This document shows, piece by piece, positions 30,001 to 33,000 of a DNA stretch of 64,000 nucleotides. Made by a program: the position numbers. Within the stretch, counting starts at the first letter, position 1, and every line of letters starts with the position of its first letter. Location: NCBI RefSeq assembly GCF_000027125.1, contig NC_017626.1; one strand, written 5' to 3'. This DNA comes from Escherichia coli 042 (lineage in GTDB: Bacteria; Pseudomonadota; Gammaproteobacteria; Enterobacterales; Enterobacteriaceae).

Positions 30001-33000
30001 AATGGAACTATTCATCATTGTTAACCTTAAATAATGTACAAATTAATGAAGAGGTGAAACCCGGCAAGCTTCCTTGCTCTTATTTATATTGAGGATTGGA
30101 ATATTAGAAAGAATATCCCACGCCGACACCCGCGCCGAAATCAGATTGCGTATCCGCAGAGACACCGGCTTTAATCACGGTATGCGTTCCGGCATTAAAA
30201 GATGTTCCGACAGACACCGCAGATTCACCGTTGAAGGTTCCCGCTCCCGCTGACATCATCATAAAGTCACCGGCTTTCACCTGTGGTTGTGAGGCGATAG
30301 CGATGGCTGATGCAGTTCCCGCATTGGCTTCTTTACGGTTGTCCTCAACTTCGTTTTTCAGCGAACTGAAATGGTTATTGAGCGTAGTAATCTGCTGGCT
30401 ATTATCCGCTACTCGTTTTTGCGTGTTGCTTAACTGCTGATGCGTTTGGGTTACGTCTTGTGTCAGGCTGTCAATTTGTTCATGCGTTTGTGTTGAGTCT
30501 TGCGCCAGACGCTGAATTTGTTCCCCGTACTGCACACTATTGATATGCTGTTGCGTTGCCTGGTTAGTCGCCAGAGTATCTATTTTTTGTTTTTGTTCTG
30601 CTGCAGTACGCGCATTCGCATCATTTTGTGCTCTCAGTCCGGCGTTAACCATCTCTTGATAATGTGCGTTGGTCTGGGCATCGCCAAGTGCGGAAACCGT
30701 TTTTTGCGTCGCGTCGATTTGTTTCTGCTGATCGTCCATTTGTTGCTGCTGGGTGTCAGCTTGTGCCTGTTGCGCATTGGCAGCGGCTGTCTGTCTGGCG
30801 TCAATCATGCTCTGATATCGGGCGGCAGTCTGCACATCCCCGGTGGCGGCAACGATTTTCCGGGTTTCGTCGAGTTGTTGCTGTTGGTCAGCAATATCGC
30901 TGCGGTTCTGTTCGATATTATTTTTGTTTTCTGTCACAGCACCGGAAAGTTTGACGCCGTTAATCAGAGCGGTGTTGGCGTTAGCGTTGGCATGGTCAGC
31001 CGTTGACTGGGCATGTGCGACATCGCCTTTTATGTTGGTGACGTCTGACTGCACTGCGGAGACATCATTACGGGTGTCGGCGATGGCGGCTTTATTGGCA
31101 TCAATATCCGTCTGCGCCACCGTGATGGCGTGCTGCGCGTCATCAGCTTTCATTGAAGCCCAGTTGGCGGCATGTTGTGCGTCCTGAATGGCGGTATCCT
31201 GCCCGTTGTCGCGGACGATCTGTTTTTGCTCGTTTGATGCCAACAGTTTCTGCTGGTCAGCAATATCGCTGCGGTTCTGTTCGATATTATTTTTGTTTTC
31301 TGTCACAGCAGAGGAGAGTTTGACGCCGTTCATCAGAGCGGTGTTGGCGTTAGCGTTGGCATGGTCAGCCGTTGACTGGGCATGTGCGACATCGCCTTTT
31401 ATGTTGGTGACGTCTGACTGCACTGCGGAGACATCATTACGGATGTCGGTGATGGCGGCTTTATTGGCATCAATATCCGTCTGCGCCACCGTGATGGCGT
31501 GTTGCGCGTCATCAGCTTTCAGTGAAGCCCAGTTGGCGGCATGTTGTGCGTCCTGAATGGCGGTATCCTGCCCGTTGTCGCGGACGATCTGTTTTTGCTC
31601 GTTTGATGCCAACAGTTTCTGCTGGTCAGCAATATCGCTGCGGTTCTGTTCGATGTTGTTTTTGTTTTCTGTCACAGCACCGGAAAGTTTGACGCCGTTA
31701 ATCAGAGCGGTGTTGGCGTTAGCGTTGGCATGGTCAGCCGTTGACTGGGCATGTGCGACATCGCCTTTTATGTTGGTGACGTCTGACTGCACTGCGGAGA
31801 CATCATTACGGGTATCGGTGATGGCGGCTGTATTGGCATCAATATCCGTCTGCGCCACCGTGATGGCGTGCTGCGCGTCATCAGCTTTCAGTGAAGCCCA
31901 GTTGGCGGCGTGCTGCGCGTCCTGAATGGCGGTATCCTGCCCGTTGTCGCGGTCGGTCTGCGCTTGATTGGTTATCGGGTTCAGCGTATTGGTGGGCTGT
32001 ACGGGAGAAGCAGCTGTATTTTCCTGAGGCGTCGTTGTCTGGTAATCATGCGCAATCAGATAATTTTGTGCGGCTACACTATTCCCTGTCCTTTCTAAAA
32101 ATCGACCAATTTTCTGATCAATTTCCGATTGCGACATTCCTGGCTGGATTACCGTTAATTCTGTCGTTGCCGCCTCAACAGTATCACCCGCAAACGCAGA
32201 TGGACTTACCGCGGTAGCAACAACGACAGCCAGTAAAGACAGCTTTACAGTTTTCATGCATTTTTTCTCTTTCAAAGTAAGTCACATATTTGTTTCTATA
32301 AGCAACGTAAAACGTTGTTATAAGAATTAATCTGCGTTGCAATTTAATCGAAATCTACGCCGCCATTTGTGTGATGTAAAGCGCATTTTTGTCTGGTGTA
32401 AGCGTAAACACCACCAATAAGAAACAAAAAATGTTTCTTATATAAATAAAATCGAAAATCATTTTGTGCTCTTTCAATGTAAAAAAGAGTAAAGACTTGT
32501 TTTGATAAGCGAAATAAATTCTGTTTCTGGACTAAACGTGAAGCGGTTCCTGATGTGTGCTAAAATGCGTTTCTTTGATAAATCTCAATTTTTAAGAGGT
32601 TTACGCCAGGCAGGAAAATTTAAATGAATGAATTTGAGAAGATTTTTAATGAAATGAATCTGGACCGGGCATTGCTACCGATCCTTTTTCGTTCGAACCG
32701 GTCAACAGTGTGGAAATATTTAAGTGGCGATAGTACGGCTCCTGCCTCAGCTATGTCACTGATTATGCTGTTGCAGTTAATCCAGAAACGAAACCCCGAT
32801 CTGTTAGCCGAATGGTTAACGCTTTCTGATTTTACCATTCCGCCAGAAGTTTACCTGGACCAGCCTGATTACTGGAAAGGGTGGGTGTATACCCAACACA
32901 AGGTCAATAAAAACGTCCTGGAATATCTAAAAAAACACTATCCGGATGAAGACCAAAAAAACATGAATAAAGGTAGTGACGAGTAATTTGCCAATGCCAG

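What the first reader, a model, noticed from the sequence alone, without database searches (positions are those of the whole stretch)
32280..32990. Divergent AT-rich control region and a 120-aa ORF next to the autotransporter gene
The ~340-bp region upstream of the autotransporter gene is markedly AT-rich with A/T tracts, the signature of H-NS-silenced horizontally acquired promoters. The divergent ORF (32624-32986) encodes a small soluble protein of no family I can name; its position suggests a local regulator or anti-silencer.
Basis: inference. Interest (0 to 1): 0.35.

Follow-up and report, generated by a model that had tools for sequence, protein, structure and literature searches.

The report
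Overlooked regulator beside an E. coli adhesin
The 120-aa gene is z0640 of E. coli O-island 29, a real, expressed gene with the fold of a DNA-binding regulator, and it always sits back-to-back with a trimeric adhesin gene across an AT-rich control region full of phased palindromic sites, so it is most likely the adhesin's local regulator, a role no one has described for it.

Summary
The 366-bp intergenic region (32258-32623) has GC 0.32 against 0.549 for the window, among the lowest 0.2% of same-sized windows. The ORF 32624-32986 is a real gene, with dN/dS about 0.07-0.09.

The locus is O-island 29 of EHEC O157:H7, between cueR and ybbJ, and is present in 26% of complete E. coli genomes. Mapping published primers shows the ORF is z0640. 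It is uncharacterised, it is transcribed in EDL933, and its deletion had no motility phenotype.

No Pfam or NCBIfam family covers the protein. A confident AlphaFold model (pLDDT 91) matches XRE/Cro-type helix-turn-helix proteins (HigA2, MqsA, Aca2, C-proteins) over the N-terminal half.

In almost every locus whose neighbours could be read, homologues lie divergent from a YadA-anchor adhesin gene across a 355-380-bp spacer. These loci span several Enterobacterales and different chromosomal sites.

That spacer keeps two promoters and a 22-bp-phased array of tGTTTCT-N3-AGAAACa palindromes: 33 sites in 10 loci against 1.6 expected.

Best reading: an autoregulated dimeric local regulator of the adhesin operon. 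Whether it activates or represses is unknown. H-NS silencing is plausible but untested.

Side finding: the published "transcription factor GmrA" (z0639) is the adhesin itself.

The parts
32624..32986 (+). z0640-type gene: 120 aa. Residues 1-70 form an XRE/Cro-like five-helix HTH domain, with the recognition helix at residues 26-34 (32699-32725). Residues 71-120 form a helical C-terminal domain with no structural match.
32258..32623 (.). 366-bp AT-rich divergent control region.
   Evidence: GC 0.32 against 0.549 for the window, lowest 0.19% of windows. The spacer is 340-379 bp in 10 loci of other taxa. Conserved blocks are seen in the 9-locus alignment A1.
32352..32380 (-). Predicted sigma-70 promoter of the adhesin operon: -35 TTTACA (32380-32375), 17-bp spacer, -10 TAGATT (32357-32352). 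The inferred TSS is near 32345, giving a 5'UTR of about 88 nt.
   Evidence: Found by the promoter scan. The invariant columns of A1 fall on GTAAAGC (the -35) and on TA..TT of the -10. The block is near-invariant across Escherichia alleles. The TSS position is inferred.
32558..32566 (+). Predicted extended -10 promoter of z0640, TGcTAAAAT, with a weak -35 (GTGAAG, 32538-32543). The inferred TSS is near 32573, giving a 5'UTR of about 51 nt.
   Evidence: The invariant columns T329, G330, T332, A333, A336 and T337 of A1 spell TGnTAnnAT in all 9 loci. There are no differences in 32481-32623 among 6 E. coli/Escherichia alleles (a seventh, E. whittamii, differs at a few positions), although ORF pS is 0.175. 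The TSS position is inferred.
32292..32306 (.). Operator-like site O1, GTTTCTATAAGCAAC, at about +46 of the adhesin transcript. It is a perfect palindrome (GTTTCTATAAGAAAC) in the O157, O18 and O145 alleles.
32314..32328 (.). Degenerate site O2, GTTGTTATAAGAATT, 22 bp from O1. It matches much better in other taxa.
   Evidence: Read from the sequence. The 22-bp phasing and the equivalent sites at about -313 appear.
32336..32340 (.). Half-site O3 (GTTGC here, TGTTTC in other taxa), near +5 of the adhesin TSS.
   Evidence: Alignment A1 columns 119-125.
32411..32447 (.). Site pair O4 (32411-32425, right half AGAAAC) and O5 (32433-32447, left half GTTTCT), 22 bp apart and about -73 and -95 from the adhesin TSS. 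Their inner halves form a perfect 10-nt inverted repeat, ATAAGAAACA-N5-TGTTTCTTAT (32417-32441).
32523..32537 (.). Site O6, GTTTCTGGACTAAAC, centred about -43 from the z0640 TSS and abutting its -35.
   Evidence: The GTTT core is invariant in A1.
32569..32583 (.). Site O7, GTTTCTTTGATAAAT, overlapping the predicted z0640 TSS (about -4 to +11).
   Evidence: The block CGTTTCTTTGATAAATCTCAATTTT is conserved in A1.
30104..32257 (-). Regulated target (inferred): a YadA-anchor trimeric autotransporter adhesin of 717 aa with a signal peptide. It is the orthologue of z0639/'GmrA'/ECs0548 ('Saa-like protein').
   Evidence: PF03895 at E 1.6e-11. Primer mapping. Ogura 2007.
29396..30018 (-). Two small downstream genes of the cassette: a 140-aa lipoprotein (z0638 orthologue, lipobox LLAGC) and a 67-aa single-TM protein.
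   Evidence: They are 70% and 52% identical to the Pseudocitrobacter cassette genes.

Best explanation
The ORF is z0640 of O-island 29. It encodes a small cytoplasmic XRE/Cro-type helix-turn-helix protein that probably acts as a dimer. It most likely binds a 22-bp-phased array of about seven tGTTTCT-N3-AGAAACa palindromes spread over the 366-bp AT-rich spacer. Through these sites it would control its own extended -10 promoter (sites at about -43 and +4) and the divergent sigma-70 promoter of the adhesin operon z0639-z0638-67aa (sites at about +5, +27, +46, -73 and -95).

Shown here: the gene is real and constrained, it has an HTH fold, its synteny with the adhesin gene is near-strict, and the spacer keeps conserved promoter hexamers and an enriched, phased palindrome array.

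For: Real gene:
- dN/dS is 0.07 against O157 (13 synonymous and 4 nonsynonymous changes) and 0.09 against Pseudocitrobacter, with synonymous sites saturated between genera.
- It is transcribed in EDL933: RPKM 43.5, falling together with z0638 and z0639 on HeLa attachment.

Fold:
- The AF2 model has pLDDT 91.3.
- The Foldseek top hit is HigA2.
- A sub-threshold profile match to the HigA2 HTH is in register.
- The recognition helix is the most conserved segment.

Synteny:
- The gene is divergent from a YadA-anchor gene at cueR|ybbJ (E. coli), qmcA|fetA, qmcA|cnoX and two unrelated contexts, with spacers of 356-379 bp.
- In E. coli, 1415 genomes carry the ORF and 1416 carry the adhesin cassette, out of 5426.

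Sites:
- GTTTC is the most enriched 5-mer (62 observed, 7.1 expected).
- TGTTTCT is 24 observed against 0.9 expected and occurs in all 10 loci.
- GTTTC-N5-GAAAC at <=2 mismatches gives 33 sites against 1.6 in shuffles (maximum 7 in 500).
- A spacing scan singles out N5 (15 hits at <=1 mismatch against 0-3 for most other spacings, at most 7) and a 22-23-bp period.
- Unconstrained positions 6 and 10 extend the dyad.
- Four of the seven TGTTTCT heptamers in the 64-kb window lie in the spacer.
- Sites overlap both predicted promoters.
- The 143 bp upstream of the ORF are invariant among six E. coli/Escherichia alleles.

Dimer: a tandem-linked AF2 model gives pTM 0.81. This is weak support.
Against: - No sequence family threshold is reached: best Pfam E-values are 0.045-0.2.
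- In this E. coli allele several sites are degenerate. O2 has 4 mismatches, and O4 and O5 each keep only one good half.
- A z0640 deletion had no motility phenotype, and its effect on z0639 was not measured (PMC5826968).
- A host factor common to Enterobacterales could recognise the motif instead.
- In Lelliottia and Symbiopectobacterium the divergent gene lacks a YadA anchor.
- One distant homologue (L022) has no divergent adhesin gene.
- Mononucleotide shuffles understate background, although the between-spacing comparison controls for this.
Confidence: 0.6

Rival explanations
1. [not shown]
For: - GC is 0.32 with A/T tracts.
- The island is horizontally acquired: it is in 26% of E. coli genomes and at different insertion sites in other genera.
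- The z0639 transcript peaks at 37 C and drops with raised osmolarity or a pH shift.
- H-NS is reported to repress the E. coli autotransporter genes upaG, upaC and upaH (PMC5012682).
- A multi-site array spanning about 300 bp on both sides of the promoter resembles how anti-silencers act. This last point rests on general knowledge.
Against: No H-NS occupancy or hns-mutant data for this locus were found in the literature searches. AT-richness alone is not specific. Sites at +5 to +46 and over the regulator's own TSS look more like repression or autoregulation.
Confidence: 0.25
2. [not shown]
For: There is no direct link between the protein and the motif. The half-site resembles those of other enterobacterial regulators, such as the OmpR-type GAAAC and KdgR-type TGAAACA half-sites (recalled from memory, not tested).
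Against: The motif array and the gene move together into at least five different genomic contexts. The recognition helix and the motif are both conserved down to 50% protein identity (L020). The dyad spacing differs from the KdgR (N3 divergent) and OmpR (direct repeat) layouts. The motif is rare elsewhere in the window.
Confidence: 0.12
3. [not shown]
For: The closest structural matches are HigA2 and MqsA antitoxins, Aca1/2/10 and R-M controller proteins.
Against: There is no co-oriented partner ORF. REP elements and the convergent ybbJ follow the stop codon. There are no phage hits, and the only 'plasmid' hits are 4.9-Mb chromosomes. Synteny is with the adhesin gene.
Confidence: 0.03

Closest known systems
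z0640 of O-island 29, EHEC O157:H7 EDL933 (Yang et al. 2018, PMC5826968)
   Same: It is the same gene. The published z0640 deletion primers flank the ORF, and the forward primer matches window 32586-32623 exactly. The protein differs from the O157 allele only in the last 9 residues.
   Different: The paper treats it as a hypothetical protein without a motility phenotype. It does not report its HTH fold, its operator array or any link to z0639 expression.
HigA2 / MqsA-type XRE HTH domains (PDB 5j9i, 8a0x, 3gn5)
   Same: The fold of residues about 1-63 matches: Foldseek prob 1.0, TM 0.68 on the target, 24% identity. The motif ...RsT..kyl.G...P...A..Li.LLq aligns in register.
   Different: There is no toxin partner. 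The HTH is N-terminal, not C-terminal. A 50-residue C-terminal helical domain has no match. Sequence scores are below all family thresholds.
Aca2 and R-M controller (C) proteins (PDB 7vjo, 1y7y)
   Different: No acr or R-M genes are adjacent. The array has about seven sites over 300 bp rather than two adjacent operators. The target is an adhesin operon.
H-NS-repressed E. coli autotransporter adhesin genes (UpaG/EhaG, UpaC, UpaH)
   Same: An AT-rich upstream region lies in front of a horizontally acquired autotransporter adhesin gene. H-NS repression is reported for those genes (PMC5012682).
   Different: A dedicated divergent HTH gene next to those loci was not looked for here. H-NS dependence of this locus is untested.
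'GmrA' (z0639), published as a transcriptional activator of fliA
   Same: It belongs to the same island and shares this control region.

Membership tests
XRE / Cro-C1 (lambda-repressor-like) HTH regulators | Five-helix lambda-repressor-like fold with an HTH at helices 2-3 | tested here: met
   [not shown]
XRE / Cro-C1 (lambda-repressor-like) HTH regulators | Sequence-profile match above the curated family threshold (e.g. PF01381, PF12844, PF15731, PF20432) | tested here: not met
   Best E-values are 0.045-0.21, all below the gathering scores, for 16 family members. There is no NCBIfam hit. The PDB profile search gives E 0.16.
XRE / Cro-C1 (lambda-repressor-like) HTH regulators | Sequence-specific binding to dyad-symmetric operators as a dimer | not testable with these tools
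   Only indirect evidence exists: an enriched, phased palindrome array next to the gene, and a linked-dimer AF2 model with pTM 0.81.
H-NS-silenced xenogeneic promoter / anti-silencer pair | AT-rich relative to the host genome and horizontally acquired | tested here: met
   GC 0.32 against 0.549. Present in 1415 of 5426 E. coli genomes and at varying insertion sites across genera.
H-NS-silenced xenogeneic promoter / anti-silencer pair | H-NS occupancy, or derepression in an hns mutant that is relieved by the local factor | not testable with these tools
   No data were found in the literature searches.
Type II toxin-antitoxin antitoxin (HigA2/MqsA-like) | Adjacent co-transcribed toxin gene | tested here: not met
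   No co-oriented ORF lies on either side. REP elements and the convergent ybbJ lie downstream, and the divergent adhesin gene lies upstream.
Anti-CRISPR-associated (Aca) or R-M controller proteins | Location in an acr operon, phage or R-M cassette | tested here: not met
   There are no phage hits. The neighbours are adhesin-cassette and core genes in all loci examined.
O-island 29 of EHEC O157:H7 (gene z0640) | Same position between cueR and ybbJ, and sequence identity to EDL933-lineage z0640 | tested here: met
   Primer mapping. 94% DNA identity to the O157 alleles over ORF plus spacer. Annotation.

The most novel reading that the evidence does not exclude
Probability: 0.35. Interest if true: 0.55.

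Novelty: new member of a known kind. Interest (0 to 1): 0.4.

Why it matters
OI-29 is carried by about a quarter of complete E. coli genomes, including O157:H7, O55:H7, O145:H28, and ExPEC, NMEC and APEC lineages. Its adhesin gene has entered the literature and several reviews as a transcription factor.

Identifying z0640 as the island's HTH protein, together with a defined operator motif and predicted promoters, gives a directly testable model for how this adhesin is switched on and off. The published data show induction within 2 h of host-cell contact and shut-off by 3 h.

It also flags a likely mis-assignment that affects models of EHEC flagellar regulation.

Tried and rejected
- **Sequence family searches.** Pfam, NCBIfam, PHROGs and PDB sequence or profile searches for the ORF gave nothing above threshold.
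- **Rfam on 32000-33300.** It found only REP-derived naRNA4 matches downstream of the ORF and nothing in the spacer.
- **Unavailable or failed tools.** The afdb50 fold library was unavailable. The first genome scan, with the wide alignment, failed for lack of a conserved stretch.
- **A CRP site at TGTGA-N6-GCGCA (32370-32385).** I considered this and rejected it. The right half is poor (3 of 5), and the centre would fall near -32.5, on top of the -35, so the conservation is better explained by the promoter itself.
- **Fis, OmpR, KdgR, PhoP and Cra motifs.** I considered these from memory. They do not fit the N5 convergent dyad and the C/G at positions 5 and 11. None was tested.
- **The idea that the Lelliottia locus keeps the two small cassette genes.** Rejected: there is no similarity, so only the regulator and a divergent secreted-protein gene persist there.
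- **Small ORFs inside the spacer** (32502-32627 +, 32355-32477 -). Not pursued, because the conservation pattern follows promoter and operator blocks, not a reading frame.
- **Linked-dimer AF2 model.** It is a workaround, not a multimer prediction, and its interface was not inspected.

Full report
**Observation.** The ORF lies exactly where stated (32624-32986, +, ATG, 120 aa). The divergent gene (30104-32257, -) encodes a 717-aa protein with an N-terminal signal peptide and a C-terminal YadA_anchor domain (PF03895, E 1.6e-11). The spacer between them is 366 bp (32258-32623). The ATG at 32257 sits behind a GAGAA Shine-Dalgarno that is invariant in nine related loci. Spacer GC is 0.32 against 0.549 for the window. 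Only 0.19% of 366-bp windows are as low, and only one other place in the 64 kb qualifies.

**Where we are.** The window is E. coli chromosome (100% identical to several genomes). A four-gene insert lies between cueR (28985-29392) and ybbJ (33172-33630): a 67-aa membrane protein, a 140-aa lipoprotein, the trimeric autotransporter, and the 120-aa ORF. The ORF plus spacer occur once each in 1415 of 5426 complete E. coli genomes, always on the chromosome, at 92-100% identity. The other end of the insert occurs in 1416 genomes. The carriers include O157:H7, O55:H7, O145:H28, ST69 and an O18 strain.

A literature search on EDL933 locus tags shows this is O-island 29, comprising z0638, z0639 and z0640. 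I mapped the primers of Yang et al. 2018 (PMC5826968, Table S2) onto an O157:H7 locus and onto the window. The z0640 deletion primers flank exactly the 120-aa ORF, and the forward primer equals window 32586-32623. The finding's ORF is therefore z0640. That paper treats it as a hypothetical protein. Its deletion or complementation did not change motility. It is transcribed: RPKM 43.5 in DMEM, dropping together with z0638 and z0639 after 3 h on HeLa cells, and -5.2-fold by qRT-PCR.

**It is a real, constrained gene.**
- Against the O157 allele there are 13 synonymous and 4 nonsynonymous differences (dN/dS 0.07), and all the amino-acid changes fall in the last nine residues.
- Against Pseudocitrobacter dN/dS is 0.09.
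- Between genera synonymous sites are saturated (pS 0.67-0.9) while pN is 0.14-0.27.

**What the protein is.** No Pfam, NCBIfam, PHROG or PDB sequence search reaches significance. The only hints are sub-threshold XRE-type HTH families (MqsA_antitoxin, Xre-like-HTH, HTH_19, HTH_3) and a profile match to the HigA2 HTH at E 0.16, in register.

The family is tiny. It has 21 clusters in 5.8 billion proteins, 19 representatives at E<=1e-3 among 1.84 billion, and 5 of about 100,000 species genomes: two Escherichia species, Pseudocitrobacter, Symbiopectobacterium and Lelliottia. There are no phage hits, and the two 'plasmid' hits are 4.9-Mb chromosomes.

Residues about 71-120, which carry the conserved PPEVYLxQPDYWKGW...HKVNxxVLEYLK motif, have no structural match. 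The recognition helix (N25-R26-S27-T28...K31-Y32) is the most conserved segment. A tandem-linked two-copy construct modelled with a paired alignment gives pTM 0.81 despite a disordered linker. That is weak support for a defined homodimer.

**Synteny.** In every locus of a homologue with at least 50% identity where flanks were available, the gene is divergent from a secreted-protein gene across a 340-379-bp spacer.

| Context | Loci |
|---|---|
| cueR\|ybbJ | Escherichia |
| qmcA\|fetA | Pseudocitrobacter-type: L002-L004, L013 |
| qmcA\|cnoX | L008, L010 |
| Unrelated contexts | L007, L012, L020 |
| Next to nrdAB-yfaE | Symbiopectobacterium |

The partner carries a YadA anchor in all of these except Symbiopectobacterium and Lelliottia. 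The lipoprotein and the 67-aa protein are also conserved with Pseudocitrobacter, at 70% and 52% identity. They are not conserved in Lelliottia.

**The control region.** I aligned nine spacers whose coding neighbours have saturated synonymous divergence. The alignment shows discrete invariant blocks.

1. On the minus strand there is TTTACA-17 bp-TAGATT (32380-32352), which the promoter scan also returned. The invariant columns fall on the -35 and on TA..TT of the -10. I read this as the adhesin-operon promoter, with a TSS near 32345 (inferred).
2. On the plus strand the invariant columns spell TGnTAnnAT (TGcTAAAAT, 32558-32566). This is an extended -10 promoter for z0640, with a TSS near 32573 (inferred).
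3. Many copies of TGTTTCT/AGAAACA are present. In an unbiased k-mer count over ten loci, GTTTC is the most enriched 5-mer (62 observed, 7.1 expected). TGTTTCT is 24 observed against 0.9 expected and is present in all ten.

The 15-bp dyad GTTTC-N5-GAAAC at <=2 mismatches occurs 33 times against 1.6 in shuffles (maximum 7 of 500). A scan over all spacings and orientations singles out N5 (15 hits at <=1 mismatch against 0-3 for most other spacings, at most 7). It also singles out the N7 divergent arrangement and a 22-23-bp direct period. The array therefore consists of palindromes two helical turns apart. Positions 6 and 10, which the search did not constrain, are T (26 of 34) and A (20 of 34). 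This extends the consensus to tGTTTCT-www-AGAAACa.

Sites recur at about -335, -313, -291, -215, -193, -101 and -55 from the ORF start. In the window they are:

| Site | Coordinates | Note |
|---|---|---|
| O1 | 32292-32306 | Perfect palindrome in the O157, O18 and O145 alleles |
| O2 | 32314-32328 | Degenerate |
| O3 | 32336-32340 | Half-site |
| O4 / O5 | 32411-32425 / 32433-32447 | Inner halves form a perfect 10-nt inverted repeat, 32417-32441 |
| O6 | 32523-32537 | |
| O7 | 32569-32583 | |

Four of the seven TGTTTCT heptamers in the whole window lie here. Within Escherichia, the 143 bp upstream of the ORF show no difference among six alleles, although the ORF's pS is 0.175. The adhesin-proximal 83 bp are mosaic and highly variable.

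**Mechanism.** The most economical reading has four parts.
- O7 over its own TSS and O6 at about -43 give autoregulation.
- O3, O2 and O1 at about +5, +27 and +46, and O4 and O5 at about -73 and -95, control the adhesin promoter.
- The sign is open. Downstream sites suggest repression. The extended array on AT-rich DNA is also what an anti-silencer would use. The co-variation of all three transcripts does not discriminate.

The link between protein and motif is inferred from co-inheritance. The motif and promoter blocks persist in L020 at 50% protein identity.

**H-NS.** Silencing is plausible but untested for this locus.
- The spacer is AT-rich.
- The z0639 transcript is reported to peak at 37 C and to depend on osmolarity, pH and growth phase.
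- H-NS is reported to repress upaG, upaC and upaH (PMC5012682).
- No H-NS data for this locus were found.

**Comparison and novelty.** At the level of mechanism this is an ordinary kind of thing: a small divergent HTH regulator with autoregulation next to a horizontally acquired adhesin operon. It passes the fold test for XRE HTH proteins but fails every sequence-family threshold. It fails the context tests for antitoxins, Aca proteins and C-proteins. The gene is already catalogued as z0640. Its fold, its obligate pairing with the adhesin gene and the operator array are not described in the papers I could search. I rate it a new member of a known kind, of moderate interest. The interest is raised somewhat by the testable operator model and by the GmrA mis-assignment.

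Noticed in passing
window 30104-32257 (-); L024 2983-3999: The published 'transcriptional activator GmrA' (z0639; PMC5826968) maps by its own cloning, deletion and qPCR primers to the YadA-anchor trimeric autotransporter gene. That protein has a signal peptide and a beta-barrel anchor and no DNA-binding Pfam domain. The transcription-factor assignment looks doubtful, and reviews have propagated it.
   Followed up: partly
window 30877-31960: A 369-bp tandem repeat (2.9 copies, 96% matches) lies inside the adhesin gene. It makes this allele 717 aa against 338 aa in O157:H7. PGAP annotates only a 349-aa C-terminal CDS in a 100% identical genome (L001 3805-4854), which drops the signal peptide. 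Stalk-length variation explains why only 252 genomes match at least 80% of 29300-33300 while about 1415 carry the island.
   Followed up: partly
window 32258-32340 versus 32341-32623; loci L024-L028, L015, L018: The spacer is mosaic within Escherichia. The adhesin-proximal 83 bp (5'UTR) differ by about 20-25% between alleles, while the rest is near-invariant. Strain DA33137 is O157-like to the left of about 32340 and window-like to the right, which suggests a recombination breakpoint at the promoter.
   Followed up: no
window 33045-33214: REP/BIME elements lie between the ORF stop and ybbJ. They score as Rfam naRNA4 (66 bits, above the gathering score, at 33045-33122, plus two weaker copies).
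   Followed up: no
window 3409-28988: A second island lies upstream of cueR and resembles O-island 28. It holds three very long consecutive ORFs (2508, 1751 and 2149 aa; 6293-25650), followed by a type I secretion ABC permease/ATPase and a HlyD adaptor. The three ORFs may be one giant adhesin that is split or frameshifted. The window's only other strongly AT-rich patch (about 3001-3500) sits at this island's left edge.
   Followed up: no
L002-L004, L008, L010, L013 versus the window: The same cassette is inserted at three different intergenic sites within one conserved neighbourhood (cueR|ybbJ, qmcA|fetA, qmcA|cnoX) in different genera. This implies repeated acquisition or local transposition without obvious mobility genes.
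   Followed up: no
L025 150-1373: E. coli O145:H28 carries an extra 407-aa hypothetical gene between cueR and the 67-aa cassette gene.
   Followed up: no
L020 842-4641: A 50%-identical homologue faces two tandem YadA-anchor genes followed by a ParE-like 76-aa gene and the two small genes. The promoter blocks and a GTTTCT at the regulator's TSS are retained, but there are fewer palindromes.
   Followed up: partly
L021, about 630-675: Upstream of a distant homologue (43% identity) there is a different motif, TCTTCATTGG..TTTGTTTT, repeated directly at the same 22-bp spacing. This hints that the phased-array architecture outlasts the motif itself.
   Followed up: no
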